Positions 6,718 to 41,937 of a stretch of DNA of 49,526 nucleotides are shown one piece after another (within the stretch, counting starts at the first letter, position 1; each line of letters opens with the position of its first letter). Source of the stretch: a phage; the sequence record PZ296778.1; one strand, given 5' to 3'. The notes below the pieces were generated by a model. It was not told where the DNA came from. It searched no databases and was given only the letters and a program-made list of their open reading frames with translations. A program made the translations under genes and the position numbers.

Positions 6718-6736
6718 GTTTAACAAAAAGTGCTAT
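6718..6736 (-). promoter_or_regulatory. conserved intergenic motif copy R1 (inverted, variant)
   Basis: GTTTAACAAAAAGTGCTAT upstream of major capsid gene; followed by hairpin plus T-run and RBS. Confidence 0.6.
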
Positions 6737-6742
6737 CATCTA

Positions 6743-6782: not shown

Positions 6783-7754
6783 ATGGCTAAAAAATACGAT
6801 GAATTAGATGCTACCATTGTAGCAAATCATTTACAGGTTCAGGGCGTTAAGGGTGATGCTTTTGATATGGGTATTTGGACCGCTCAAGAGCTACACAAGA
6901 TCCGTTCAACGGCATACGAGAAAGAGTATCCGGCAGGTTCCGCACTTCGCGTATTCCCTGTAACAAACGAGCTTTCTGATACTGATAAGACTTTTGAGTA
7001 TCAGACTTTTGATAAGGTTGGCTACGCGAAAATTATCGCCGACTACACCGACGATCTGCCGACCGTGGACGCGCTGATGACTTCTGAATTTGGCAAGGTG
7101 TTCCGCCTGGGTAACGCTTTTCCGATCTCCATTGATGAGATTAAAGCAGGTCAGCGAACTGGCAAGAGCCTGTCAACTCGCAAGGCTAACGCTGCGCAAA
7201 ATGCGCATGATCAGTTGATTAACTTCCTGGTGTTCAAAGGTTCCAAGCCTCATAAGATCGTTTCCGTTTTCGATCACCCTAACCTTACGAAAATTGTTTC
7301 TAAAGGATGGATGAGCCAGGATGGAAACACCAAGTTCCCTGATGTGGCAAGCGATGAACTGGAGGCTGCAATCGAGACTATCGAGGAAGTAACAAAAGGT
7401 CAGCACCGCGCGACTAACATCCTGATCCCGCCGTCCATGCGTAAAGTCTTGACGGTTCGAATGGAAAATACCACTGAAAGTTATCTTGAATACTTCCAGA
7501 AGCAAAACGGCGGAATCACTATCGACTCTATCGCAGAGCTTGAGGATATTGACGGCAAAGGTACGAAAGGTTGCTTGGTTTACGAAAAAGATCCAATGAA
7601 CATGAGCATTGAGATTCCAGAAGCGTTTAACATGCTTCCGGCGCAGCCAAAAGACCTTCATTTCAAGGTTCCTTGCACTTCCAAGTGTACTGGCCTTACG
7701 ATTTACCGTCCGTTTACGATGGTGCTTATTACTGGCTTGAAAAAGTCAGTTTAA
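6783..7754 (+). CDS. major capsid protein
   Basis: 323 aa; strong RBS ggagga; bracketed by intrinsic terminators; size and position typical of an HK97-fold major capsid protein. Confidence 0.7.
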   Translation: MAKKYDELDATIVANHLQVQGVKGDAFDMGIWTAQELHKIRSTAYEKEYPAGSALRVFPVTNELSDTDKTFEYQTFDKVGYAKIIADYTDDLPTVDALMTSEFGKVFRLGNAFPISIDEIKAGQRTGKSLSTRKANAAQNAHDQLINFLVFKGSKPHKIVSVFDHPNLTKIVSKGWMSQDGNTKFPDVASDELEAAIETIEEVTKGQHRATNILIPPSMRKVLTVRMENTTESYLEYFQKQNGGITIDSIAELEDIDGKGTKGCLVYEKDPMNMSIEIPEAFNMLPAQPKDLHFKVPCTSKCTGLTIYRPFTMVLITGLKKSV

Positions 7755-10470: not shown

Positions 10471-10490
10471 CTTTTAACAAAAAGTGCTAT
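10471..10490 (-). promoter_or_regulatory. conserved intergenic motif copy R2 (inverted)
   Basis: CTTTTAACAAAAAGTGCTAT directly abutting the RBS of the G-like chaperone gene. Confidence 0.6.
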
Positions 10491-10504
10491 AAGGAGATCT
10501 TAAG

Positions 10505-16423: not shown

Positions 16424-19400
16424 ATGGCTAAATATATGATAAGCGGCAGTAAGGGAGGCGGTCAAAAGCCCTACGTGCCAAAAGAGATGGAAGATAACCT
16501 GATCTCGATAAACAAGATTAAAGTTTTGCTGGCTGTATCTGATGGCGAGTGCGATCCAGATTTTACGTTGCGTGATCTTTATCTTGATGATGTTCCGGTT
16601 ATTGCCAGCGATGGCACTGTTAACTACGAGGGAGTTACGGCTGAATATCGACCAGGCACGCAGACGCAAGATTACATCCAGGGTTTTACTGACACATCAA
16701 GTGAGGTTACAGTTGCCAGAGATATTACCGGAGACAATCCTTATGTTATTTCTGTTACAAATAAAAATCTATCTGCGGTAAGAATAAAGATCCTGATGCC
16801 AGTAGGCATTAAAACAGAGGATAACGGCGATCTTGTTGGCGTAAGGGTTGAGTATGCCGTAGATATGGCTGTTGATGGCGGTTCTTATAGCGAGGTTATG
16901 AGAGATGTAATTGACGGCAAGACAAGATCAGGATACGACCGCAGCAGAAGGATTGATCTTCCTAAGTTTGATGAGCGCGTTTTAATCCGAGTAAAGCGAC
17001 TGACTCCAGACAGCACATCTTCAAAGGTGACTGATAAAATCAAGCTGCAAAGTTACGCTGAGGTTGTTGATGCAAAATTCCGCTATCCTCTGACTGGACT
17101 TGTATTCGTAGAATTTGACAGCGAATTGTTTCCTACGCAAATCCCTAACATTTCTATAAAAAAGAAATGGAAGATTATTAATGTGCCAAGCAACTATGAT
17201 CCAATATCAAGAGAATATCACGGGTCATGGGATGGGACTTTTAAAAAAGCGTGGTCAAATAATCCTGCTTGGGTTCTTTATGATCTGGTGACAAATCAGC
17301 GTTATGGACTTGATCAGCGAGAGTTAGGAATACAGATCGACAAGTGGAGCTTATACGAGGCGGGCGTTTACTGCGATCAGAAAGTTCCAGACGGTAAAGG
17401 CGGCACTGAGCCTCGCTACCTATGCGATGTGGTGATTCAGAATCAAGTTGAGGCTTATCAGCTAATCCGTGACATTTGCTCAATCTTTCGCGGAATGAGT
17501 TTTTGGAATGGTGAGAGCTTATCAATCGTGATTGATAAGCCGCGCGATCCATCATACGTGTTTACTAATGAAAACGTCATCAACGGTGATTTTCAGTACA
17601 CAAACGCAAGCGAAAAAAGCATGTACACGCAGTGTAACGTGACGTTTGACGACGAACAAAACATGTATCAGCAGGACGTAGAGGGGGTTTTTGATACTGA
17701 GGCGGCATTACGATTTGGATACAACCCAACAAGCATTACAGCGATCGGGTGTACGCGCAGGAGCGAAGCGAATCGTCGCGGTCGTTGGGTTTTGAAAACA
17801 AACCTTAGAAGCACTACTGTAAACTTTGCTACCGGACTAGAGGGGATGATTCCATCAATAGGTGATGTTATTGCTATCGCTGATAATTTTCAGAGTAGCA
17901 ACCTAACGTTAAACCTATCGGGCCGAGTAATGGAAGTTTCAGGGCTGCAGGTTTTCGTTCCGTTTAAGGTTGATGCTCGCCCTGGTGATTTTATTATCAT
18001 CAACAAGCCGGACGGCAAGCCAGTTAAGCGCACGATCTCAAAGGTTAGCGCAGACGGAAAAACCATTGAGTTAAATATTGGATTTGGTTTTGATGTTAAG
18101 CCTGATACTGTTTTTGCGATTGACCGTACTGATCTTGCGTTGCAGCAATACGTTGTGACAACCATCAGCAAGGGTGATGACGAAAACGAGTTTACCTATT
18201 CAATCACGGCTGTAGAGTACGATCCGAACAAATACGACGAGATTGATTATGGAGTAAACATTGATGACAGACCGACTTCAATTGTTCAGCCTGACGTGAT
18301 GGCAGCGCCTGAGAACGTTAAGATCTCATCTTATTCTCGCGTCGTGCAGGGTGTTAGCGTTGAGACTATGGTTGTTTCATGGGATAAGGTTCCTTACGCA
18401 TCGCTTTATGAAATGCAGTGGCGAAAAGGTGATGGTAACTGGCTGAATACGCCGCAGACCGCTAACAAAGAGATAGAGGTAGAAGGGATTTACTCTGGCA
18501 ACTACCAAGTAAGGGTGAGATCCGTTTCTGCAAGCGGTAACGCTTCCCCGTGGTCAAAGATTGCAACCGCCACTCTGACAGGTAAAGTTGGCGAGCCAGG
18601 AGCGCCGATTAATCTTACGGCTTCTGATAATGAAGTTTTTGGCATTCGTGTCAAATGGGGTATGCCGGAAGGATCAGGCGATACGGCTTACATTGAGCTT
18701 CACCAATCGCCAGACGGAACGGTTGAAAACTCAAGTCTGCTTACGCTGATTCCATATCCTCAATATGAGTATTGGCATAGCACGTTACCAGCGGGGCAAG
18801 TTGTATGGTATAGAATCCGCAGCGTTGACAGAATAGGCAACGTTTCAAGCTGGACTGACTTTGTTCGCGGCATGGCGTCAGATGACGTTGAATCTGTTTT
18901 GGGCGACATTCTGGACAAGATTTTTGATACAGAAGCTGGTCAAGAAATCAAAGAGAACGCCATAGACAGTGCCAATAAAATCAAAGACCAGGCGCAATCA
19001 ATCATACAGAACGCGTTGGCAAATGATGCAGATGTGAAGTGGACACGAGTGCAAAACGGAAAGCGCAAGGCTGAATATGGTCATGCTCTTGAGCTTATCG
19101 CCAATGAAACAGAAGCGCGCGTAACTCAAATCGAAGAGTTAAGGGCTTCAATTGATGGCGAGATAACATCAAGCATCAAGACAGTGCAGGAGGCAATTGC
19201 CACTGAATCAGAGACGCGAGCGACTCAAATTCAGCAGCTTGATTCTAAATTCACAAAAGAAATCGACGGCGTGCGCAAGGATACTTCTGCAAGCATTAGC
19301 GATGTAAGGCAGACAATCACTAACGAGTCAGAAGCGCGCGCTCAGGCCGTTCAGCAGCTTGACGCTAAGTTCACGAAAGAGATAAACGACCTTGACGGAG

Positions 19401-20002
19401 TTATCAAAACAGAAGTCGAGGCTAACATCTCAGAAGTGAAACAGGCGATCGCCAATGAGACAGAGGCAAGGGTTCAGGCTGACCAGGCATTAACAGCACG
19501 ATTTGGCGACGTTGAATCTGCATTGGTTGAAAAGTTGGATTCTTGGGCGAGCGTTGATTCAGTTGGCGCTAAATACGCTATGAAACTTGGCCTTACTTAC
19601 AAAGGCCAGCAATACAGCGCAGGAATGGTGATGCAGCTTTCGCAGGGTTCATCCGGCCTTATCTCGCAAATTTTGTTTGATGCTAACAGGTTCGCCATTA
19701 TGACTAGCTCTACTGGAGGGACTTTTACTTTGCCTTTCGTGGTTGAGAATAATCAGGTTTTCATTAATAGTCTTTTGGTGAAGAACGGTTCAATCACTAA
19801 TGCGATGATTGGTAATGTGATTCAGTCAAACAACTTTGTTCAAAACCAGCAAGGATGGAGGCTTGATAAAAACGGAATCTTTGAGAATTACGGATCAACG
19901 CCAGGAGAAGGAGCTACTAAATTCACCAATGAGGGATTGAAGGTAAAAGATGCAAACGGAGTATTGAGGGTTGAAGTCGGAAGGATTACCGGAAGCTGGT
20001 AA
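16424..20002 (+). CDS. central tail fibre / host specificity protein (lambda J-like)
   Basis: About 1190 aa; recognisable similarity to lambda J (VPSNYDPISREYHGSWDGTFKKAWSNNPAWVLYDL, GVYCDQKVPDGKGGTEPRY); start moved to MAKYMISG because track start 16373 lies inside the upstream terminator. Confidence 0.9.
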   Translation: MAKYMISGSKGGGQKPYVPKEMEDNLISINKIKVLLAVSDGECDPDFTLRDLYLDDVPVIASDGTVNYEGVTAEYRPGTQTQDYIQGFTDTSSEVTVARDITGDNPYVISVTNKNLSAVRIKILMPVGIKTEDNGDLVGVRVEYAVDMAVDGGSYSEVMRDVIDGKTRSGYDRSRRIDLPKFDERVLIRVKRLTPDSTSSKVTDKIKLQSYAEVVDAKFRYPLTGLVFVEFDSELFPTQIPNISIKKKWKIINVPSNYDPISREYHGSWDGTFKKAWSNNPAWVLYDLVTNQRYGLDQRELGIQIDKWSLYEAGVYCDQKVPDGKGGTEPRYLCDVVIQNQVEAYQLIRDICSIFRGMSFWNGESLSIVIDKPRDPSYVFTNENVINGDFQYTNASEKSMYTQCNVTFDDEQNMYQQDVEGVFDTEAALRFGYNPTSITAIGCTRRSEANRRGRWVLKTNLRSTTVNFATGLEGMIPSIGDVIAIADNFQSSNLTLNLSGRVMEVSGLQVFVPFKVDARPGDFIIINKPDGKPVKRTISKVSADGKTIELNIGFGFDVKPDTVFAIDRTDLALQQYVVTTISKGDDENEFTYSITAVEYDPNKYDEIDYGVNIDDRPTSIVQPDVMAAPENVKISSYSRVVQGVSVETMVVSWDKVPYASLYEMQWRKGDGNWLNTPQTANKEIEVEGIYSGNYQVRVRSVSASGNASPWSKIATATLTGKVGEPGAPINLTASDNEVFGIRVKWGMPEGSGDTAYIELHQSPDGTVENSSLLTLIPYPQYEYWHSTLPAGQVVWYRIRSVDRIGNVSSWTDFVRGMASDDVESVLGDILDKIFDTEAGQEIKENAIDSANKIKDQAQSIIQNALANDADVKWTRVQNGKRKAEYGHALELIANETEARVTQIEELRASIDGEITSSIKTVQEAIATESETRATQIQQLDSKFTKEIDGVRKDTSASISDVRQTITNESEARAQAVQQLDAKFTKEINDLDGVIKTEVEANISEVKQAIANETEARVQADQALTARFGDVESALVEKLDSWASVDSVGAKYAMKLGLTYKGQQYSAGMVMQLSQGSSGLISQILFDANRFAIMTSSTGGTFTLPFVVENNQVFINSLLVKNGSITNAMIGNVIQSNNFVQNQQGWRLDKNGIFENYGSTPGEGATKFTNEGLKVKDANGVLRVEVGRITGSW

Positions 20003-20006
20003 AAAA

Positions 20007-20024
20007 GGGGGCATAGCCCCCTTT
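20007..20024. terminator. bidirectional terminator between convergent central fibre gene and lipoprotein operon
   Basis: GGGGG-cata-GCCCCC hairpin flanked by an A-run upstream and T-rich sequence downstream. Confidence 0.6.
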
Positions 20025-20028
20025 AATT

Positions 20029-20655
20029 TTAATCATAGTGTGATGCATTTATAACCAAAACAGATGAAGCGGTGTAAATACCAACAGGTCCAGGAGTTTG
20101 TGCAACCTGCCTAGAAAAAGAGTAGATCCCGTTACCATACGCGGCAGCTTGAGACTCAAAAATCATGAATCCACCTAAAGCCGGATTAGGAACAGAGTTT
20201 AATGCTGTCAGTGATGGCATTATGGCGCAAGGATAGCCCATGTTAACATCAAATGCGATCCCGCTTACGCCTACTTGCTTTGCATCTAGCGGCCTCATTT
20301 TTCCATGATAAACCATTTCACCATGAGCATTATAAAACGCTATGCCGTGACTACCTGGGGGAGTCACCATATTACTAAAAGCATAAACAATAACCTCACC
20401 CTGATTATCAGATCTATCAAGTCTTATTGCGTGCCTTCCACCATTGTTAAATTGCGTGAATGATATGTATGATTTAGCGGTCAATCTAACAAAGAAAAAA
20501 CATACCCTATCAACAGGAATTGACGAAGTAAAAACGGTTCCGGTATTAGCAGATATTACGGCCCGATCAATTAGATTAACTGGAGTGAAATCTGGACTTA
20601 ACCATAACGATCCGTCTGATTTTTTTATACTCATCCCGTACATTATCACCCCCAA
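20029..20655 (-). CDS. hypothetical protein (third gene of lipoprotein operon)
   Basis: 208-aa ORF; track start is a TTG inside a T5G5 run overlapping the upstream ORF by 10 nt; an ATG lies 4 codons in. Confidence 0.4.
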   Translation of the reverse strand: MGVIMYGMSIKKSDGSLWLSPDFTPVNLIDRAVISANTGTVFTSSIPVDRVCFFFVRLTAKSYISFTQFNNGGRHAIRLDRSDNQGEVIVYAFSNMVTPPGSHGIAFYNAHGEMVYHGKMRPLDAKQVGVSGIAFDVNMGYPCAIMPSLTALNSVPNPALGGFMIFESQAAAYGNGIYSFSRQVAQTPGPVGIYTASSVLVINASHYD

Positions 20656-20924
20656 AAAGTATATATATATCTTGAATCAGATCCAGAAAGCCCACTCCAT
20701 GTAACGGTGTCGCCACTAACCCCTAAGTTTGGTGCGCCAGGGTCGCCACCACGCCAGGAATTCATGCCAACATATATTGCTTTCAATGATTTACCTGGCG
20801 GCCTGTTTTGGTAAGTCTTGCTACCTGATGGCTGAGTGAATTTATCAAGGAAGAAAACAGGCGTTAAAAGTCCTGTAACTTCCCTTCCTCGATCGTCATA
20901 TATTGCATAACCATATTGCGCCAT
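20646..20924 (-). CDS. hypothetical protein
   Basis: 92 aa; start overlaps the lipoprotein stop (TAATG). Confidence 0.4.
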   Translation of the reverse strand: MAQYGYAIYDDRGREVTGLLTPVFFLDKFTQPSGSKTYQNRPPGKSLKAIYVGMNSWRGGDPGAPNLGVSGDTVTWSGLSGSDSRYIYTFWG

Positions 20925-21199
20925 TAATTACACCTCAAATCAATAAATTTACTTTCATTTTGCCAACGGTTGATAAATTTAACTTCTTTATTGTCAACGC
21001 TCAACCTGTATTGCTTTTGGCTGAATCTGTTTTCGCGGACTGCATTAATTTTGACTTCATGGAATCCGTTAACAGGGAATGTTTTAACGTTAAATTTTGC
21101 CGTGCAATCGATCTCCTTGAAGTTGCCAGTAGGCGACGCTGCGCATCCTGTCAGAGCGGCTACAGTGGCGATAACTGCGATTAACTTTTTCATCTTCAA
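20924..21199 (-). CDS. lipoprotein (candidate Cor/Llp-type superinfection exclusion protein)
   Basis: 91 aa; signal peptide plus lipobox (AALTGC); RBS aaggag; first gene of a leftward operon next to the tail genes. Confidence 0.55.
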   Translation of the reverse strand: MKMKKLIAVIATVAALTGCAASPTGNFKEIDCTAKFNVKTFPVNGFHEVKINAVRENRFSQKQYRLSVDNKEVKFINRWQNESKFIDLRCN

Positions 21200-21248
21200 T
21201 ACTCCTTAGTTGTTGTTGGATGCAACTATACACGATCTTGGGCATCGC

Positions 21249-21267
21249 GTTTAGCAAAAAGTGCTAT
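21249..21267 (-). promoter_or_regulatory. conserved intergenic motif copy R3 (variant)
   Basis: GTTTAGCAAAAAGTGCTAT about 50 nt upstream of the minus-strand lipoprotein gene. Confidence 0.55.
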
Positions 21268-21636
21268 TTGTTATTTTTTGTTTTCCGGTGTTATCGAATT
21301 TAAGACGGCGTAAATTTAGCGCAAAATTTAGACAACATAAGATCAATAAACAATCAATAAAATAGATATATACATATAAAATCAATAGTTTATTTATTTA
21401 TGTATGTATATTTGTTTTTTCTTGTTATCTGCGTTTCTTGTGGTTTTGGTTGTTTGTGGTGATTTTTCTTTCTGAGTATCTGTATGTGCCATCATTCATG
21501 TGTATGTATATAATCCGGCGTATCTGAGAGAACATGGGAACAAGAAAAATAACACACATTAATCATTAACTTATGAGTCAAATCTGTTTTCTTGCCATCT
21601 GAGAACGTTTAGAAAACAGAAAAAACAAAACAGCTA

Positions 21637-21664
21637 TTGACTAAATCAACAAAATGGCTACAAT
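21637..21664 (+). promoter_or_regulatory. sigma70-type early promoter for the exonuclease/Erf/SSB module
   Basis: -35 TTGACT, 16-bp spacer, -10 TACAAT; A-tract (gaaaacagaaaaaacaaaa) immediately upstream; about 30 nt before the exonuclease RBS. Confidence 0.6.
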
Positions 21665-21694
21665 GCACGCATAAAGCAACAAGGAGCATTAAAG

Positions 21695-24246: not shown

Positions 24247-24270
24247 CCCCGCATATGCGGGGCATTTTTT
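24247..24270. terminator. bidirectional terminator between SSB (+) and tail fibre (-) genes
   Basis: CCCCGC-atat-GCGGGG hairpin with A-run upstream and T-run downstream. Confidence 0.75.
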
Positions 24271-25006
24271 AGTCTAACGTGGTTGGTTTGTTTACCAGTG
24301 CCGCTACAACCGCTTTTAGCTCGTCAATTTCTTTTCTCATCTCATCGTTTTCCGCTTTCAGTTTCTTAACGTGGTGAATCAGTGGAACAGTTAGGCGGTC
24401 ATACATAACGCCTTCCGCCACCATGCCATTACTTGAAGCAATGGCAGGATCTTCTCCTTCTTGCAGCGGTCGCCAGTGAACGTACTCCGGCGCAATTTCT
24501 CCAACCTCTTCCGCGATTAGCCCGTACCATCCCCAATCTTTACGGTCGCTTTCACAGGTTGACCGATACCACACAGGACGCATTTCAAGCATCAGATCCG
24601 CATATTCATCAATAACCGATTCTACGCTGCGCTTATAACGAGAATAGGAAGTGGAGCGTAAAACTTGCGACACTCCAGCATTTGGATCAAGCCATAAGTT
24701 TGCTGATTGAGAGGTTGTGTTTAGTCTAAACAAATAAAATTTCTCGTTACCAGTCAGGGGGTAAAAACTGCCACCATACCTTCCGCTATCCAACTCGGAC
24801 GATAGATCATTTTGTTTTAGATACAACTTCAACTTATTGTCAACATCAGTAGTTGATGCTTTTCCTGCAACATCCTGTTTTAGTGTCGAAACATCACTTT
24901 TCAGCTTCGTTATATCACCAGGAATAGTAGCAACATCCTGTTTTAGTGTTGAAACGTCATTTTTCAGCTTCGTTATATCACTAGGTATAACAGTGACTGT
25001 AGCCAT
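24269..25006 (-). CDS. tail fibre protein with C-terminal intramolecular chaperone (peptidase S74-like)
   Basis: 245 aa; N-terminal 21-aa tandem repeats (DITKLKNDVSTLKQDVA twice); C-terminal SDRKDWGWYG segment resembling the autoproteolytic chaperone of fibre proteins. Confidence 0.5.
   Translation of the reverse strand: MATVTVIPSDITKLKNDVSTLKQDVATIPGDITKLKSDVSTLKQDVAGKASTTDVDNKLKLYLKQNDLSSELDSGRYGGSFYPLTGNEKFYLFRLNTTSQSANLWLDPNAGVSQVLRSTSYSRYKRSVESVIDEYADLMLEMRPVWYRSTCESDRKDWGWYGLIAEEVGEIAPEYVHWRPLQEGEDPAIASSNGMVAEGVMYDRLTVPLIHHVKKLKAENDEMRKEIDELKAVVAALVNKPTTLD
24867..24985 (-). repeat. 63-bp imperfect tandem repeat in tail fibre gene
   Basis: Two about 63-bp units encoding the 21-aa repeat DITKLK(N/S)DVSTLKQDVA. 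Confidence 0.6.
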
Positions 25007-25018
25007 TTTCCTAACTCC

Positions 25019-25342
25019 TTAAGCCCATTCTCTAATAGGCTGATCTAACTCAACCACGTATCCATTAAAAATTACGGCATCAAACTTATCATCAATGATT
25101 CGCACATTAACGAAATAGCCGTCGTTCTTTCGCGCAATCTCCTCGCCATCGTCAGATCGTGCAATTACTGTATAAGTATTGCCGATTACATCGAGCAGGA
25201 TTGCATCCTGAATGGATTCGTTATCATCCCAATTAATTTTTCCTAAAAAGGCCGAAAACTCGGCCTTGTCTGAAAATTTTAATGTTAAATCACGCATTAA
25301 ACAATTTCCCCCAATTGATGATCTGTTAGTGCCTTGTGCCAT
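25019..25342 (-). CDS. hypothetical protein (tail fibre associated)
   Basis: 107-aa ORF between the two fibre genes, overlapping the upstream gene end. Confidence 0.35.
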   Translation of the reverse strand: MAQGTNRSSIGGNCLMRDLTLKFSDKAEFSAFLGKINWDDNESIQDAILLDVIGNTYTVIARSDDGEEIARKNDGYFVNVRIIDDKFDAVIFNGYVVELDQPIREWA

Positions 25343-27252
25343 ATACGGAAGTTTCTAACGTGCCCGAAAAGATGACGTTCTCCCGTAGTTGTTTGTCCGC
25401 CAATCCTTATAGTAGCCGTCGATCTTATGTATCTCCATTCCGCTTTTGATTCGCTTGATATTATGGAATTACTTACACAACAAGTATTGTAATCACTCTT
25501 TACTCTCATTCCCATGATCATCTTTTTTAGTTTCGCATTCTCGTAAACCCTTCGGTTTGAGTTACCTATGTCGCAATAAGGGAATCCGTCATTATCGCCT
25601 TCGGCAGACCCGAAAGCAAGAATTATTGCCGCTCCGGTTTGATGGCCGGATGTATCAAAAACACGTGGCGCAGCGTTTGGCGTTATACTCCAGTTTTTAT
25701 GAGCTTCCACAAGCACTGTAAACGGCAAATTGTAAAGGTTGTTTTTTATTGGCAATGTAACCATATCGCTTGCCCTTGTTGTCGGACTTTTATTAGTTAT
25801 AATGAATGATGAAGCGCAAGATCCAACCTCTACTTGAGGAGTTGTTAAATCCATAAAGCTATTTTCATCAAAAACTTCTCCTTGTTTATTAACGACCTGT
25901 ATTACCCCCCTAATGTAAGTTGATTCATCAGTAACTTTGTAAACTATTTCTGCAAAAATCCATTCCCCGTCTATGGTAGCGTTCTTTAGCACTATGTTTT
26001 TTGCGTCAACTCCAGAAGTTGCCACCCCTAAGTTATCGCAATCAATAATAGCAGAAGCAACAGAAGATAAAGGATCTCCCTTGTCAAATCTTGCTGCAAA
26101 TCTTACATTTTTCCCCTTAGCCCTAAAAGATATTGTAACTCCATCACCCTTTACAACTGCAATCTTATTTGCAGTAGGTCCAGCTATAATAGTGTAATAG
26201 CCTACGCCACCTAAATATTCCCCTGGTTTAAATGTTGCATACTTAAACCCCCTTTCATCAGTCTTAGTTTCACCTCTTTCTAATCCTGGATTTGGATTCC
26301 ATGATTCAGGCTTATTTGAATTTACAAAATAGTTTGTTCTCTGCCCTTCAATCAAAAGACCATCCTTTTCAAATCTAGGTTCATCAATAGCAGCATCAGT
26401 AAGCAACCCAGACTTATTAATGTAAGTAGCGGTTGATGCACGTTTAAACTTAACAATATTGTCACCTGGCATCGTTATCTCATCATCACCTATGACAATC
26501 TTTTTGTATGACGGCGAGAATCCGGTGATCATATCCAGGGAATCATTAAATGGTATCCACACGTCAGGTAGAGGCTGCAATAAATCTTTGTAAGGTTCTG
26601 CGGCCTGTTTTGCGTATTCCTCCGCTTGATCTCGCGCACTTTCAGCGCCTGCCTTTGCGGTGTTCGCAGCATCACGCGCAGTTTCAGCGCCTTTTCTTGC
26701 AGTTTCAGCGCCAGTCTTTGCAGTGTTTGCAGCGTCGCGCGCGGATTCAGCGGCAGCCTTTGCAGTGTCAGCACCTTTCTTGCTATTCTCTGCATTTGTT
26801 GCGCTTGTCTTTGCGTTATTCTCGCTAGTTTTAGCTGCCTTCTGGCTTGCTGCGGCTGCGTCAGCATTTGTCTTTACGTCTTCCTGGATCTTCTGTAGCT
26901 TATCCCAATCAAAATCCTTGATGATCTCAATAAATCCAGCAAACTCCGATTCCTTCCCCTGGTAATAACGCAACGTTTCCGCTACGTCTTGCGCAAGACC
27001 GTCAACCGTTAACGAGTCATGAAGCAAGATCAGGTAATTTGTCTTCTGTACTACCGCGCCTCCAGTAGTAATTGCGCGAATGCTTGTATCGCTAATCACT
27101 TCTGTAATCACAGCAGCTTGCAAAGGTTGAGCAAGAAAGAAAATAGTTGCACCTGGGCGAATCAAGGTTAATTGCTCACGCCATTTTGTACCGTAACCAG
27201 TTACATAACCTTGCGCGTCCATAGACGCTTGGCCTTGTCTGTAAATCGCCAT
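25297..27252 (-). CDS. tail fibre protein
   Basis: About 650 aa; start moved to ATG after perfect RBS aggagg (track start is a GTG inside the motif); alanine-rich repeat block (AETARKGAETARDAANTAKAGAESARD) then a variable C-terminal domain. Confidence 0.55.
   Translation of the reverse strand: MAIYRQGQASMDAQGYVTGYGTKWREQLTLIRPGATIFFLAQPLQAAVITEVISDTSIRAITTGGAVVQKTNYLILLHDSLTVDGLAQDVAETLRYYQGKESEFAGFIEIIKDFDWDKLQKIQEDVKTNADAAAASQKAAKTSENNAKTSATNAENSKKGADTAKAAAESARDAANTAKTGAETARKGAETARDAANTAKAGAESARDQAEEYAKQAAEPYKDLLQPLPDVWIPFNDSLDMITGFSPSYKKIVIGDDEITMPGDNIVKFKRASTATYINKSGLLTDAAIDEPRFEKDGLLIEGQRTNYFVNSNKPESWNPNPGLERGETKTDERGFKYATFKPGEYLGGVGYYTIIAGPTANKIAVVKGDGVTISFRAKGKNVRFAARFDKGDPLSSVASAIIDCDNLGVATSGVDAKNIVLKNATIDGEWIFAEIVYKVTDESTYIRGVIQVVNKQGEVFDENSFMDLTTPQVEVGSCASSFIITNKSPTTRASDMVTLPIKNNLYNLPFTVLVEAHKNWSITPNAAPRVFDTSGHQTGAAIILAFGSAEGDNDGFPYCDIGNSNRRVYENAKLKKMIMGMRVKSDYNTCCVSNSIISSESKAEWRYIRSTATIRIGGQTTTGERHLFGHVRNFRIWHKALTDHQLGEIV
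26600..26870 (-). repeat. short-period repeat block encoding an alanine-rich region of the tail fibre
   Basis: Reiterated tttcagcgcc / tttgcagtgt units; encodes repeated AETAR/DAANTAK-type peptide units. Confidence 0.55.
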
Positions 27253-27269
27253 TTGTAAAATCCTCCTAA

Positions 27270-27289
27270 ATAGCACTTTTTGCTAATGA
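27270..27289 (+). promoter_or_regulatory. conserved intergenic motif copy F1 (variant)
   Basis: ATAGCACTTTTTGCTAATGA abutting the RBS of the minus-strand tail fibre gene. Confidence 0.55.
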
Positions 27290-30905: not shown

Positions 30906-31324
30906 TGGCTATAACTGATAAAGGAGATTATCTTGAGTTTTACGAAAGAGATCCAACCGACACGAGAAAGGAAGTTAATCACCAGATAGATAGCTTTCAG
31001 TGGTTGACTTATGCTCATCCTTATTTGCTAGCGTGGCATACGGTAAACGAGAATGAGAAGTCGAAAGTAACGGCGATGATTGATCAGCAGTCCGGCTTGG
31101 TTAAGGGGGTAAGCGATTTCATCATCCTGATTGGTTCAAACGGAAAATACCCCTTTGCAGCGATTGAGATCAAACGAGTTAATAAATCAGGCAAGGGGAA
31201 AGCATCACCAGTCAGCGATGAACAAAAGGCTTTTTTGCGTCGCGTTCGCAGCTTAGGAGGATTCGCTGCGGTCGCCTACGGATTTAATCAGTTTAAGTTA
31301 GCTATTGAATACATGCTTAAATAG
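30905..31324 (+). CDS. VRR-NUC family nuclease (putative)
   Basis: 139 aa; PD-(D/E)XK-like GVSDFIIL...AIEIKR; start overlaps helicase stop; stop TAG is part of a motif copy. Confidence 0.55.
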   Translation: MAITDKGDYLEFYERDPTDTRKEVNHQIDSFQWLTYAHPYLLAWHTVNENEKSKVTAMIDQQSGLVKGVSDFIILIGSNGKYPFAAIEIKRVNKSGKGKASPVSDEQKAFLRRVRSLGGFAAVAYGFNQFKLAIEYMLK

Positions 31325-31340
31325 CACTTTTTGTTAAAAC
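31321..31340 (+). promoter_or_regulatory. conserved intergenic motif copy F3
   Basis: ATAGCACTTTTTGTTAAAAC; its TAG is the VRR-NUC stop codon; followed by hairpin TGGCGC...GCGCCA. Confidence 0.65.
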
Positions 31341-35770: not shown

Positions 35771-36166
35771 TCATGTGATATTGAATTTACGGCGCAGTGC
35801 TTCAAGATCTTGTCTATTAGCTTTTGCCTGGAACAATTCATCATCGCCCATCTCCCCTATTCTAGCTATATCCCTGATCCAGTCGTTGCGCATACCATCC
35901 AGGCTATACAATTCGAATCCGAAAGGCCGCTTTGACGATCCTTTGGACCAGTATTTTCCGCATACTCCATCTATATAACCAGCCGTCATCATTCTTGCGC
36001 AAAATTCCTTAGATGCAAGGCTGGCGAACATTCGCGGCGTAAGTCCGGCGGCCCGTGCGAGCCGCTCACATTCTCTATGCTGATAGATAAATTTGGCTAT
36101 GTGCTGCCTGTTAAACCAATCGTATGACTCACACCATTTATACAGATCAAGCAAAAACATAATCAT
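35771..36166 (-). CDS. hypothetical protein
   Basis: 131-aa ORF; start overlaps stop of the upstream P-loop gene (ATGA). Confidence 0.45.
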   Translation of the reverse strand: MIMFLLDLYKWCESYDWFNRQHIAKFIYQHRECERLARAAGLTPRMFASLASKEFCARMMTAGYIDGVCGKYWSKGSSKRPFGFELYSLDGMRNDWIRDIARIGEMGDDELFQAKANRQDLEALRRKFNIT

Positions 36167-37854
36167 CCCAGCAGTATTGGATTGACAAAAATAACACCAT
36201 TAATCACACAAACATAATTTCTTTCTTCCAGCATTGGCAGTAAGTGCCCTTCTATCCTTTTCATTACGCCAGCCTGACCAACGAAAGGTTTTACCTTTCT
36301 CGCTGATTCGTACAGGGCGCGGATATTCAGAATCCCTTTATTAGCCTTGCCGTGCCTCGTGATCAATTCAATCAATTTACCCATTTCAGCATCATCACCA
36401 GCATAACCAGAAGCATTGGCGGCGCTAATGTATGTTTTGCTCAATTCCTGAAACATGATCAACGCCTCTTGCATTGTTTCCACGTCGATCTCTTTCGACT
36501 TCTGCGGGTATCCGGCAGGATTAAACCAGTTACGGATAACATGCAGGACGGAAGCAAGCCTGATCACCTGTTTATCCATTTTACCCAGCGCACCGCGTAA
36601 CATTGTATGAGAATACTTTCCTCCGTCTGCAAGATGCGGTTCCATATCCTGGCGAGCAATGTTGAGCACTCGCATAGCTGAACGGCTTATTTTCAGCGAT
36701 ATATTTGATTCGCTCATGATGTTATGCACCAATTGATAATATTGGGCTTTCAATTCAGAATCCACCGCCTCATAGGTAGAATCACCATTTTCATCAATGA
36801 ATGAGCGACGGCCTAAGAATGATTCCTCGCGGACCAACAAAAAACGCTCACTAACACCGATGCCTCGCGATCCAGCGTCCATGATTCCGCTTATCGTTTC
36901 ATCCTGGGCTATAACGCTCATACATCCAAGCGCGCGAAAACTCATATTATTGTCAGCATTAGCGCGGGCAATTGATACGTGACCATTATCCCACGCCTTA
37001 AGCACTAACTCACTGTTAGTCTTCCTTTCGCTATTTGCATAGGTCAAGCCTAACAGACTGTTAATACTTGTTGCTTCATCAGATATTACGGCAAAGTTAC
37101 CTTGCTTGTTGTTGATTTTCGCCAAGCCTTCTGGAGTTGTATCTGAGACAGGAAAAGTTATATCACACATTTTTTCCAGTTTTTCCTCCAGATCCTCTTT
37201 TTCCTGGTATAGAGATTCCATATCAGCGCCGGATCTTTCGCTTTTCATCTCCTTTGCAAGACCTGCCAGCTTTGCCTGTATTTTCTTTCTTTCCTTGCGG
37301 CGTTGCTCGTTGATCTTCTCAACTTCCGCAATCATCGGAGCAATAGCCATGCTGTTGATCGCAGATTTACCAGTTGACGGCGGCTGGCTTGTAACGACGT
37401 AAAGCGCAGTCGGCTGATCGGTTCCGTGATAGTCAACCGTAAAGCGTCCAAGCATAGCGGCAGAAATGCAGCCGATAAAGTGCATGTAAGCCGATGATTC
37501 AGGGAATTGAACGGATCGCGCAATGCTGCGTGATAACTTGCCGACAACATCAATATCATTACCAAGAGAAATAACGGGGTAGCGATCGTGACCGCTATTC
37601 ACATCCGATTCAGGGAATTGAACGGATCGCGCAATGCTGCGTGATAACTTGCCGACAACATCAATATCATTACCAAGAGAAATAACGGGGTAGCGATCGT
37701 GACCGCTATTCACATCCTTTACGTCGCCCCAAAAGCTGGACGACTGGCGATAGCCGTTAGCCTGAATTGATACGCGAACTGGCGAAAGGTTCTGGCTTTC
37801 AGCCATAGCGATTATTTGTTGTGGAGTTAATTTGTTCGTTTCTAATGAAAACAT
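36163..37854 (-). CDS. P-loop NTPase of unknown function (DUF3987-like?)
   Basis: 563 aa; Walker A-like PSTGKS and Walker B-like FAVISDEAT; N-terminus carries a perfect 37-aa tandem duplication; RBS aaggag. Confidence 0.5.
   Translation of the reverse strand: MFSLETNKLTPQQIIAMAESQNLSPVRVSIQANGYRQSSSFWGDVKDVNSGHDRYPVISLGNDIDVVGKLSRSIARSVQFPESDVNSGHDRYPVISLGNDIDVVGKLSRSIARSVQFPESSAYMHFIGCISAAMLGRFTVDYHGTDQPTALYVVTSQPPSTGKSAINSMAIAPMIAEVEKINEQRRKERKKIQAKLAGLAKEMKSERSGADMESLYQEKEDLEEKLEKMCDITFPVSDTTPEGLAKINNKQGNFAVISDEATSINSLLGLTYANSERKTNSELVLKAWDNGHVSIARANADNNMSFRALGCMSVIAQDETISGIMDAGSRGIGVSERFLLVREESFLGRRSFIDENGDSTYEAVDSELKAQYYQLVHNIMSESNISLKISRSAMRVLNIARQDMEPHLADGGKYSHTMLRGALGKMDKQVIRLASVLHVIRNWFNPAGYPQKSKEIDVETMQEALIMFQELSKTYISAANASGYAGDDAEMGKLIELITRHGKANKGILNIRALYESARKVKPFVGQAGVMKRIEGHLLPMLEERNYVCVINGVIFVNPILLG
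37496..37717 (-). repeat. perfect 111-bp in-frame tandem duplication inside the P-loop gene
   Basis: Two identical adjacent 111-bp units (37496-37606 and 37607-37717) encoding a duplicated 37-aa segment. Confidence 0.85.
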
Positions 37855-40496: not shown

Positions 40497-40517
40497 GTTT
40501 TTAACAAAAAGTGCTAT
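40497..40517 (-). promoter_or_regulatory. conserved intergenic motif copy R7
   Basis: GTTTTTAACAAAAAGTGCTAT at the head of the leftward early operon; followed on the minus strand by hairpin GATGCGCT...AGCGCATC, RBS and ATG. Confidence 0.6.
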
Positions 40518-40565
40518 TTGACGGTTAGCACCAGGATTGTGATCGAAATAATCAAAAGTAATCAT

Positions 40566-41596: not shown

Positions 41597-41865
41597 AAAA
41601 GGCATTAATCAGCGTTTTGGCGGCAATGGCATTCCTGACCGGATGCAAAGAAGATGGCGCGCATGTTGGCAATGTGCAGATGGCTAACCCTGGCGATGAC
41701 TACAGCGTAAGGGAGCTATTCACCGCTGACGGTTGCACCGTTTACCGATTCTATGACGATCGCACTGTTTACTTCACCAACTGCAAGGGCACTACTAGCT
41801 GGGAAGTGTCGAAAAGCAATGGCAAAGGCACGAAGACAGAACATATGACCGTCGAGACAAAATAG
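41593..41865 (+). CDS. lipoprotein
   Basis: Start at MKKALIS (ATGA overlap); signal peptide plus lipobox LTGC; 90 aa; stop TAG is the start of motif copy F5. Confidence 0.55.
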   Translation: MKKALISVLAAMAFLTGCKEDGAHVGNVQMANPGDDYSVRELFTADGCTVYRFYDDRTVYFTNCKGTTSWEVSKSNGKGTKTEHMTVETK

Positions 41866-41881
41866 CACTTTTTGTTAAAAC
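41862..41881 (+). promoter_or_regulatory. conserved intergenic motif copy F5
   Basis: Exact 20-mer; TAG is the lipoprotein stop; followed by hairpin GCCAGGC...GCCTGGC. Confidence 0.65.
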
Positions 41882-41937
41882 GCCAGGCGCAAAGCCTGGC
41901 ATAATAGCCTCATCGAAACGAGATTGAGGAAACAAAA

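What the first reader, a model, noticed from the sequence alone, without database searches (positions are those of the whole stretch)
20029..21267. Leftward three-gene operon headed by a lipoprotein, convergent with the tail genes
A 91-aa lipoprotein (signal peptide plus lipobox LTGC) is translationally coupled to a 92-aa ORF and then a 208-aa ORF, all on the minus strand, with a motif copy about 50 nt upstream. Small lipoproteins next to receptor-binding genes in T5 (Llp) and T1/phi80 (Cor) block the phage receptor and exclude superinfection. The two downstream proteins have no recognisable motifs and could be receptor-binding or accessory tail-tip proteins.
Basis: partly seen in the sequence, partly recalled or inferred. 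Interest (0 to 1): 0.55.

Follow-up and report, generated by a model that had tools for sequence, protein, structure and literature searches.

The report
Phage receptor-binding and exclusion gene cassette

Summary
The three minus-strand genes exist as described. There are two corrections: homologues and RefSeq use ATG starts, giving 89, 92 and 204 aa. The window is a Warwickvirus (Drexlerviridae) genome, 99.9% identical here to phage tonn.

The locus matches the published "bona fide RBP locus" found downstream of the J-like tail-tip gene in small siphophages. BASEL phage FritzSarasin (Bas04) carries this allele (ORF3 98.5%, lipoprotein 98.9% identical) and depends on BtuB.

- **ORF2 and ORF3** fall in the same PHROG families as T1 orf32/orf31 and Stx-phage gp55/gp54.
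- **The lipoprotein** has a lipobox, an outer-membrane sorting signal and two invariant cysteines. Once its signal peptide is removed it shows no significant similarity to Cor or Llp. It works like Cor but is not a demonstrable family member.

A phage promoter-like motif plus TATAGT lies upstream, and a bidirectional terminator is shared with J. Verdict: real, interpretation supported, already known in kind. The biochemistry of the BtuB allele is untested.

The parts
21249..21268 (-). Conserved phage promoter-like motif AATAGCACTTTTTGCTAAAC, 56 nt upstream of the lipoprotein ATG
   Evidence: There are 17 copies in the window against 0.01 expected. Fifteen are in sense orientation upstream of genes with the same downstream layout. 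The motif is conserved upstream of the lipoprotein gene in tonn, tonijn, KarlJaspers and vB_EcoP_06.
21225..21230 (-). -10-like hexamer TATAGT, 18 nt after the motif
   Evidence: Read directly from the sequence. It has the same position relative to the motif as CATAAT/TATAAT/TATAGT in the other copies. The TTGCTA inside the motif lies 21 nt from it, too far for a canonical -35.
20924..21193 (-). Outer-membrane lipoprotein gene (89 aa; signal peptide 1-16, lipobox LTGC, lipidated Cys17, Ala at +2; invariant Cys30 and Cys88). Predicted superinfection-exclusion / receptor-blocking protein.
   Evidence: only hydrophobic N-terminus of the three proteins, KD 1.76. PHROG 1119 'Cor' E 8e-8 for the full length, but no hit once the signal peptide is removed. 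98.9% identical to the protein of BtuB-dependent Bas04.
20646..20924 (-). 92-aa soluble protein (PHROG 557, mis-named 'outer membrane protein'). Predicted adaptor or accessory subunit at the tail tip.
   Evidence: PHROG 557 E 4e-20, the same family as T1 orf32 and 933W L0126. No hydrophobic segment. TAATG overlap with the upstream gene. Described as a small Ig-like protein in PMC12309495; its fold was not tested here.
20029..20643 (-). 204-aa receptor-binding protein of the central tail tip (PHROG 425, mis-named 'membrane associated protein'). Predicted BtuB binder.
20001..20028 (.). Bidirectional intrinsic terminator between the convergent J-like gene and ORF3: A6, GGGGGC-ATA-GCCCCC, then TTTAATTTT
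   Evidence: The scan found the hairpin at 20004-20024. Direct reading shows the stem is followed by TTTTTT on the minus strand and by TTTAATTTT on the plus strand.
16424..20002 (+). J-like central tail fibre / tip protein (1192 aa from the ATG). Presumed docking platform for ORF2 and ORF3.
   Evidence: Its C-terminal ~250 aa align (26% identity, E 1e-6) to the very end of 933W L0125, which by position (immediately upstream of L0126/L0127) I take to correspond to the phi24B needle gp56; L0126 and L0127 are the ORF2 and ORF3 homologues.

Best explanation
The locus is the host-recognition and exclusion cassette of a T1-like (Warwickvirus) phage, transcribed leftward as one operon.

- **Transcription (inferred).** It starts at the phage's own promoter type (the 20-nt motif plus TATAGT) and stops at a hairpin shared with the convergent J-like gene.
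- **ORF3 (inferred from fold, homologues and literature).** This 204-aa soluble all-beta protein caps the trimeric C-terminal tip of the J-like central fibre. It is the terminal receptor-binding protein. It probably inserts variable loops into the extracellular face of the TonB-dependent vitamin B12 transporter BtuB.
- **ORF2 (role not established).** This 92-aa protein is a small accessory or adaptor subunit of the same tip.
- **The lipoprotein (inferred by analogy).** The first gene encodes an 89-aa prelipoprotein. It is exported, lipidated on Cys17 and sorted to the inner leaflet of the outer membrane. By analogy with T5 Llp on FhuA and Rtp45 on LptDE, it binds the same receptor from the periplasmic side. 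This would change or block the extracellular loops, so that superinfecting phages and released progeny cannot adsorb.

Shown here: the gene structure, signals, family matches, fold match, near-identity to a BtuB-dependent phage, and movement of the cassette as a unit.

Inferred: presence of ORF2/ORF3 in the virion, BtuB binding by ORF3, and BtuB blocking by the lipoprotein.
For: - **Position and layout.** The cassette lies directly downstream of the J-like gene and is 99.9% identical to Warwickvirus tonn.
- **Literature.** PMC8594841 matches alleles of this locus to the terminal receptor 'without exception' and notes cognate exclusion proteins.
- **Receptor.** Bas04 FritzSarasin (ORF3 98.5%, lipoprotein 98.9%) and Bas06 KarlJaspers (same three-gene layout; 64%/56%) are both listed with BtuB as terminal receptor.
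- **Families.** ORF2, ORF3 and the full-length lipoprotein hit PHROGs 557, 425 and 1119. These are the same families as T1 orf32/orf31/Cor, and 557/425 as 933W L0126/L0127.
- **Virion evidence in a relative.** The phi24B preprint detects gp54 (204 aa), the ORF3 homologue, in the virion proteome, and sees extra density at the needle tip. AF2-multimer work places the hand-like protein on the spike tip (PMC12309495).
- **Docking platform.** The C-terminus of J is homologous to that of 933W L0125.
- **Conservation pattern.** ORF3's termini are conserved and its centre is variable across homologues.
- **Solubility.** Only the lipoprotein has a hydrophobic N-terminus.
- **Lipoprotein family.** Lipobox, Cys30 and Cys88 are invariant in 12 homologues and in more distant representatives.
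- **Horizontal movement.** The cassette is 53-67% identical in a Dhillonvirus whose J is only 32-42% identical, and it is complete in E. coli prophages.
- **Exclusion mechanisms.** Solved for Llp-FhuA and Rtp45-LptDE (PMC9586334; PMC12685063).
Against: - No experiment exists for this allele. BtuB dependence is a genetic result for whole phages, not for ORF3.
- Foldseek gives only marginal support for the 9rpt_C match (E 1.3e-2, TM 0.33, rank 2).
- Sequence profiles find nothing in the PDB.
- The role, stoichiometry and fold of ORF2 were not tested here.
- The KanT1 paper (PMC13164509) interprets the two proteins as membrane proteins linked to exclusion.
Confidence: 0.8

Rival explanations
1. 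ORF2 and ORF3 are not virion proteins. They are host-membrane-associated factors that act with the lipoprotein in superinfection exclusion, as their database names and the KanT1 paper suggest.
For: [quoted passage not shown]
- PMC13164509 assumes a link to the exclusion mechanism because of co-location with cor.
- Here all three genes form one operon headed by the lipoprotein gene.
Against: - Neither protein has a signal peptide or hydrophobic segment (max KD 0.55 and 1.18).
- ORF3's fold matches a solved RBP.
- The Stx-phage homologue (phi24B gp54) is in the virion proteome.
- The gene pair occurs without an annotated lipoprotein gene beside it in JenP2 and 933W.
- Membrane-affinity estimates in PMC12309495 argue against embedding.
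Confidence: 0.06
2. The cassette is a receptor-binding plus exclusion module, but its receptor is not BtuB (for example another TonB-dependent transporter).
For: - Receptor assignment is by near-identity to Bas04, not by a test on this phage.
- The JLBYU warwickviruses carrying this allele are reported only as 'not FhuA-dependent, receptor unknown'.
- ORF3 varies by up to 13% within the genus, for example in tonijn.
Against: - ORF3 is 98.5% and the lipoprotein 98.9% identical to BtuB-dependent Bas04.
- A second, more divergent allele with the same layout (Bas06) is also BtuB-dependent.
- BASEL reports that allele-receptor matching has no exceptions.
Confidence: 0.1
3. The lipoprotein has another role, such as a lysis or spanin-like function or a lysogenic-conversion factor unrelated to the receptor. 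Its position next to the RBP genes is then incidental.
For: - The mature domain has no significant similarity to Cor or Llp.
- Small phage lipoproteins have several known roles (general knowledge).
Against: - It is co-inherited with ORF2/ORF3 across Drexlerviridae, a Dhillonvirus and E. coli prophages in the same order.
- Between the two BtuB-dependent phages it diverges along with the RBP allele.
- The same arrangement holds experimentally verified exclusion lipoproteins in T5, T1 and Rtp.
- No partner inner-membrane spanin gene is adjacent.
Confidence: 0.05

Closest known systems
[quoted passage not shown] 2021, PMC8594841); BtuB allele of BASEL phages FritzSarasin (Bas04) and KarlJaspers (Bas06)
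   Same: Same position after the J-like gene, same three genes in the same order and orientation, and 98.5-98.9% protein identity to Bas04.
   Different: Nothing substantive. This is the same allele in another Warwickvirus isolate.
Phage T1 orf32 / orf31 / cor cassette (FhuA)
   Same: Same three PHROG families for the full-length proteins (557, 425, 1119), and the same position after J.
   Different: In T1 the two soluble proteins are co-directional with J and only cor is on the opposite strand. Here all three form one leftward operon led by the lipoprotein gene. Pairwise identity is low (about 23-31% over partial alignments). The mature lipoprotein is not significantly similar to T1 Cor. The receptor is FhuA in T1 and BtuB here.
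Oekolampad RBP-LptDE and Rtp45-LptDE (van den Berg lab 2025, PMC12685063; PDB 9RPT, 9RPS)
T5 pb5 / Llp (FhuA) and the Cor family
   Same: The functional logic is the same: the RBP gene lies next to a small outer-membrane lipoprotein with an intramolecular disulphide that blocks the receptor from the periplasm (PMC9586334).
Stx-phage (933W, phi24B) L0126/L0127 = gp55/gp54 tip proteins, proposed BamA binders
   Same: ORF3 is 44% and ORF2 about 51% identical to the Stx-phage proteins. The gene pair follows a central fibre whose C-terminus is homologous to that of J.
   Different: These are podoviruses, with genes co-directional with the needle gene, no adjacent lipoprotein gene annotated (lom follows instead), and BamA as receptor.

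Membership tests
Small-siphophage RBP + exclusion cassette downstream of gpJ (Maffei 2021) | Encoded immediately downstream of the J-like central tail fibre gene | tested here: met
   J ends at 20002 and ORF3 ends at 20029, convergent.
Small-siphophage RBP + exclusion cassette downstream of gpJ (Maffei 2021) | The allele matches that of phages with an experimentally determined terminal receptor | tested here: met
   98.5% (ORF3) and 98.9% (lipoprotein) identity to Bas04. Bas06 has the same layout. Both are BtuB-dependent.
Small-siphophage RBP + exclusion cassette downstream of gpJ (Maffei 2021) | The cassette varies and moves independently of the phage backbone | tested here: met
   Identity dips in the cassette relative to the flanks in tonijn. 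The cassette is 53-67% identical in a Dhillonvirus whose J is 32-42% identical, and is present in E. coli prophages.
Small-siphophage RBP + exclusion cassette downstream of gpJ (Maffei 2021) | The RBP is on the virion tip and binds the receptor | not testable with these tools
   There is only indirect support: the Stx-phage homologue (phi24B gp54) is in the virion proteome and the fold matches 9rpt_C.
PHROG 425 'hand-like' tip protein / Oekolampad-type RBP fold | Significant profile match | tested here: met
   E 1.8e-49 over the full length. T1 orf31 and 933W L0127 fall in the same family.
PHROG 425 'hand-like' tip protein / Oekolampad-type RBP fold | Fold similarity confirmed by a second method (Foldseek) or by sequence profile | tested here: inconclusive
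   Foldseek places 9rpt_C at rank 2 with E 1.3e-2, prob 0.97 and TM 0.33. The profile search of PDB sequences found nothing.
PHROG 557 small Ig-like tip protein | Significant profile match | tested here: met
   E 4.3e-20. T1 orf32 and 933W L0126 fall in the same family.
PHROG 557 small Ig-like tip protein | [quoted passage not shown] | not tested
The claim rests on PMC12309495.
Cor exclusion lipoproteins (T1, phi80, N15) | Signal peptidase II signal with lipobox, and outer-membrane sorting | tested here: met
   LTGC with Cys17 and Ala at +2; hydrophobic N-terminus KD 1.76. The sorting rule is established knowledge of the E. coli Lol pathway.
Cor exclusion lipoproteins (T1, phi80, N15) | Two further conserved cysteines in the mature protein (intramolecular disulphide) | tested here: met
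   Cys30 and Cys88 are invariant in 12 homologues and in distant representatives. T1 Cor has the same placement. The bond itself was not tested.
Cor exclusion lipoproteins (T1, phi80, N15) | Significant sequence homology of the mature domain, or a score above the curated cut-off | tested here: not met
   The mature domain gives no hit to PHROG 1119 at E up to 1. NCBIfam lamb_exclu_cor scores 19.2 bits against a cut-off of 31. hhalign against mature T1 Cor gives probability 2%, and 21 of 500 shuffles reach the observed score.
T5 Llp fold | Structural similarity to Llp (8A60 chain B) | tested here: inconclusive
Canonical sigma-70 promoter | -35 and -10 hexamers 16-18 nt apart | tested here: not met
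   The scan finds no minus-strand promoter upstream of the operon. TTGCTA lies 21 nt from TATAGT. The conserved 20-nt motif suggests an UP-element-like or factor-dependent phage promoter.

The most novel reading that the evidence does not exclude
The 204-aa protein, the Stx-phage gp54 proteins, T1 orf31 and the LptD-binding Oekolampad RBP may all derive from one ancestral monomeric tip-RBP scaffold. In that case its loops have been retargeted to BtuB, BamA, FhuA and LptD. The accompanying lipoprotein would be a separate, narrow family (only about five 50%-identity clusters worldwide) that jams BtuB from the periplasm, independently of Cor and Llp. If true, a single small scaffold and its matched blocker could be engineered or swapped to redirect phages to essential outer-membrane proteins.
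Probability: 0.45. Interest if true: 0.45.

Novelty: already known. Interest (0 to 1): 0.22.

Why it matters
The locus determines which outer-membrane protein the phage uses, and probably how infected cells become refractory to further adsorption. Knowing the allele predicts the receptor from sequence (BtuB here), which is useful for choosing phage cocktails and for engineering resistant production strains.

Tried and rejected
- Pfam gave nothing above threshold for any of the three proteins. NCBIfam gave only sub-threshold lipoprotein hits.
- PDB sequence searches found nothing meaningful, with single sequences or with profiles.
- Foldseek against the PDB for ORF3 gave no hit at E <= 0.001; 9rpt_C was only marginal.
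- I tested whether ORF3 is an internal duplication of an ORF2-like module. A ~22-residue motif (YG-x-A/S-I/F-x-D/N-x-x-G...P-V/L) occurs at the ORF2 N-terminus, the ORF3 N-terminus and ORF3 residues 98-119. hhalign gives at most 25% probability, and the two halves of ORF3 do not align. I rejected this as unproven.
- I tested whether the lipoprotein connects to Cor through intermediates. An exhaustive phmmer search with the mature domain returned 8 hits at E <= 0.001. Five are 87-97-aa lipoproteins and none is Cor-like.
- Rfam gave no match in the whole window.
- One paper (Wietzorrek 2006, PMC1367250) is not held. Statements about it are second-hand, from PMC13164509.

Full report
**Identity of the window**

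The region 19900-21500 is 99.9% identical over its full length to Escherichia phages tonn and ityhuna. It is at least 99% identical to about 30 other Drexlerviridae records. RefSeq places tonn in Tempevirinae, genus Warwickvirus. The window is therefore essentially a complete T1-like phage genome.

**Checking the observation**

Three consecutive minus-strand ORFs exist at the stated place.

- **Lipoprotein gene.** It has an AAGGAG Shine-Dalgarno at 21202-21207. The TTG at 21199 follows it by only 2 nt, while the ATG at 21193 follows by 8 nt. RefSeq annotates 270 nt, and homologues begin MKK. The product is therefore 89 aa: MKKLIAVIATVAALTG|C, with lipobox LTGC, Cys17 and Ala at +2.
- **ORF2 (92 aa).** It starts at an ATG that overlaps the lipoprotein stop (TAATG).
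- **ORF3.** All homologues begin MYG, and RefSeq annotates 615 nt. The product is 204 aa starting at 20643, two bases after the ORF2 stop (TGATAATG).
- **Motif.** It has 17 copies at up to 3 mismatches, against 0.01 expected. One copy lies at 21249-21268 on the minus strand, 56 nt before the ATG.
- **Terminator.** The J-like gene (16424-20002) and ORF3 (ending at 20029) converge on a single hairpin, GGGGGC-ATA-GCCCCC. It is flanked by an A-run and a T-rich run, so it reads as a terminator on both strands.

**What the proteins are**

Pfam finds nothing above threshold, but PHROGs does.

| Protein | PHROG family | PHROG name | E-value |
|---|---|---|---|
| ORF2 | 557 | 'outer membrane protein' | 4e-20 |
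| ORF3 | 425 | 'membrane associated protein' | 2e-49 |
| Lipoprotein (full length) | 1119 | 'Cor superinfection exclusion protein' | 8e-8 |

T1 orf32, orf31 and Cor fall in the same three families. 933W L0126 and L0127 fall in families 557 and 425. The membrane names are not supported by the sequences. Only the lipoprotein has a hydrophobic N-terminus (Kyte-Doolittle 1.76). ORF2 and ORF3 peak at 0.55 and 1.18.

**Literature context**

- Maffei et al. (PMC8594841) describe 'bona fide RBP loci' directly downstream of gpJ homologues in Drexlerviridae, Dhillonvirus, Nonagvirus and Seuratvirus. These loci come with cognate superinfection-exclusion proteins. Their allelic type matches the experimentally determined terminal receptor without exception.
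- Their supplementary table lists FritzSarasin (Bas04, Warwickvirus) and KarlJaspers (Bas06, Hanrivervirus) with BtuB as terminal receptor.
- Bas04 carries this allele: ORF3 98.5% and lipoprotein 98.9% identical. Bas06 has the same three-gene layout convergent with J, with 64%, 72% and 56% identity for ORF3, ORF2 and the lipoprotein.
- JLBYU warwickviruses with this allele are reported as not FhuA-dependent.
- Matusiak et al. (PMC12309495) model the small 'Ig-like' and the 'hand-like' proteins as a cap on the tail-spike tip. In their models the hand-like protein is the best receptor binder.
- A 2026 preprint on phi24B reports extra density at the needle tip. It detects gp54 (204 aa) in the virion proteome. 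ORF3 is 44% identical to the homologous protein of phi24B and 933W.
- The KanT1 paper (PMC13164509) describes the same cassette in T1. It found no structural hits for the two proteins and notes that BtuB-targeting Tempevirinae carry a Cor-like protein.

**New tests here**

- *ORF3 fold.* An AlphaFold2 model from a 14-sequence alignment is confident (pLDDT 86.3, pTM 0.81), all-beta, with a disordered N-terminal ~20 residues.
  - Foldseek ranks the same chain second, but only marginally (E 1.3e-2, prob 0.97, TM 0.33). Sequence profiles do not detect it.
  - PMC12685063 shows that this RBP inserts into the receptor lumen. It also shows that the neighbouring lipoprotein of phage Rtp (Rtp45) binds LptDE from the periplasmic side and prevents RBP binding.
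- *Docking platform.* The C-terminal ~250 residues of J align to the end of 933W L0125. L0125 sits immediately upstream of L0126/L0127. By position I take it to correspond to the phi24B needle protein gp56. ORF3's N- and C-terminal segments are the most conserved parts across homologues that use different receptors. Both facts fit a conserved docking interface with variable receptor-binding loops.
- *Lipoprotein.* Its model is moderate (pLDDT 74) and forms a small beta barrel.
  - Without its signal peptide the protein no longer hits the Cor PHROG.
  - The NCBIfam Cor model scores 19.2 bits against a 31-bit cut-off.
  - hhalign and shuffling against mature T1 Cor are not significant.
  - An exhaustive phmmer search with the mature domain finds a narrow family. 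Of the eight hits, five are 87-97-aa lipoproteins. All five carry a lipobox, a Cys about 8-14 residues after the lipidated Cys (mostly in a D-C-T motif) and a Cys within a few residues of the C-terminus.
  - The protein therefore shares Cor/Llp architecture and genomic context but is not a demonstrable member of the Cor family.

**Cassette behaviour**

| Phage | Lipoprotein | ORF2 | ORF3 | J, last 150 aa | Other flanks |
|---|---|---|---|---|---|
| tonijn (same genus) | 95.5% | 92% | 87% | 91% | 99% (exoVIII; J, residues 300-500 from the C-terminus) |
| BEK2-2 (Dhillonvirus) | 53% | 67% | 61% | 42% | 32% (J, residues 300-500 from the C-terminus) |

E. coli chromosomal prophages carry the complete cassette in the same order, with the lipoprotein 54% and ORF3 63% identical. 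JenP2 and 933W have the ORF2/ORF3 pair with no annotated lipoprotein gene beside it. The module therefore moves horizontally as a unit, and the lipoprotein is a frequent but not obligatory passenger.

**Expression signals**

The motif copy upstream of the operon is followed after 18 nt by TATAGT. The same layout is seen for 15 sense-oriented copies upstream of other genes, mostly in the replication and early region. The TTGYTA inside the motif lies about 21-22 nt from the -10 element, so this is not a canonical -35. The consensus scan finds no standard promoter there.

The motif plus TATAGT is conserved upstream of the lipoprotein gene in tonn, tonijn, KarlJaspers and vB_EcoP_06. It is absent in the Dhillonvirus and the prophages. 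The cassette is therefore wired into each host phage's own promoter system. Sharing a promoter type with non-structural genes would fit early production of an exclusion protein, but I have no timing data.

**Conclusion**

- The receptor is most likely BtuB.
- ORF3 is the receptor-binding tip protein.
- ORF2 is an accessory tip subunit of unproven role.
- The lipoprotein is a functional analogue of Cor, Llp and Rtp45 rather than a proven homologue.

All of this is already described in kind for near-identical phages. What remains open is the biochemistry of the BtuB allele.

Noticed in passing
window, 17 sites, e.g. 31320-31339(+), 41861-41880(+), 40499-40518(-), 21249-21268(-): The 20-nt motif AATAGCACTTTTTGTTAAAA is followed after about 18-20 nt by a -10-like hexamer. 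The interval, or the -10 itself, often lies within a short inverted repeat whose sequence differs between copies but whose pairing is kept. Examples are GCCAGGC-gcaaa-GCCTGGC at 41882-41900 and GATGCGCT...AGCGCATC around TATAGT after 40499. This looks like a phage-specific promoter class with an UP-element-like upstream half. The role of the hairpins is unexplained.
   Followed up: partly
window 6718-6737(-) and 10472-10491(-); T1 locus L003 833-852(-): Two motif copies lie antisense inside the plus-strand structural gene block, in the intergenic gaps before the ORFs at 6783 and 10505. T1 has a copy, also antisense to its tail genes, in the gap between the major tail protein and tape-measure chaperone genes. 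These could be antisense promoters or binding sites that work in either orientation.
   Followed up: no
window 37496-37717: A perfect tandem duplication of 111 nt (37 codons) lies near the 5' end of the DNA helicase gene (36163-37854, minus strand; PHROG 2373). The PHROG match starts only at residue 84. It could be a real in-frame duplication or an assembly artefact.
   Followed up: no
window 24269-27276 (minus strand): A second leftward three-gene cluster encodes the lateral tail fibre (659 aa), a 107-aa protein and a 245-aa tail-fibre-tip-like protein. It contains 63-nt tandem repeats at 24867-24989 and 26636-26761.
   Followed up: partly
window 19097-19472: The J-like gene carries four diverged copies of a repeat spaced 99-132 nt apart (peptide ...ITNESEARAQAVQQLDAKFTKEI...), just upstream of the C-terminal tip domain. 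It is probably a coiled-coil spacer of variable length.
   Followed up: no
window 21270-21694: The intergenic region of about 500 bp between the lipoprotein operon and the divergent exonuclease VIII gene (425 bp of it upstream of the promoter motif) is AT-rich. It contains short overlapping T-rich repeats (21379-21468) and a plus-strand promoter-like site at 21637-21664.
   Followed up: no
ORF2 residues 3-25; ORF3 residues 2-25 and 98-119: A ~22-residue motif (Y/H-G-x-A/S-I/F-x-D/N-x-x-G ... P-V/L) recurs in both tip proteins, and in T1 orf31 and orf32. It may be a shared docking hairpin. The profile comparison was not significant (at most 25% probability).
   Followed up: partly
phage collection records MG065649, MG065657, MG065681: Records named 'Campylobacter phage' A143, C4 and A139 (49,946 bp) carry this Drexlerviridae cassette, with ORF3 64% and the lipoprotein 52% identical. 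They may be mislabelled coliphage-type genomes.
   Followed up: no
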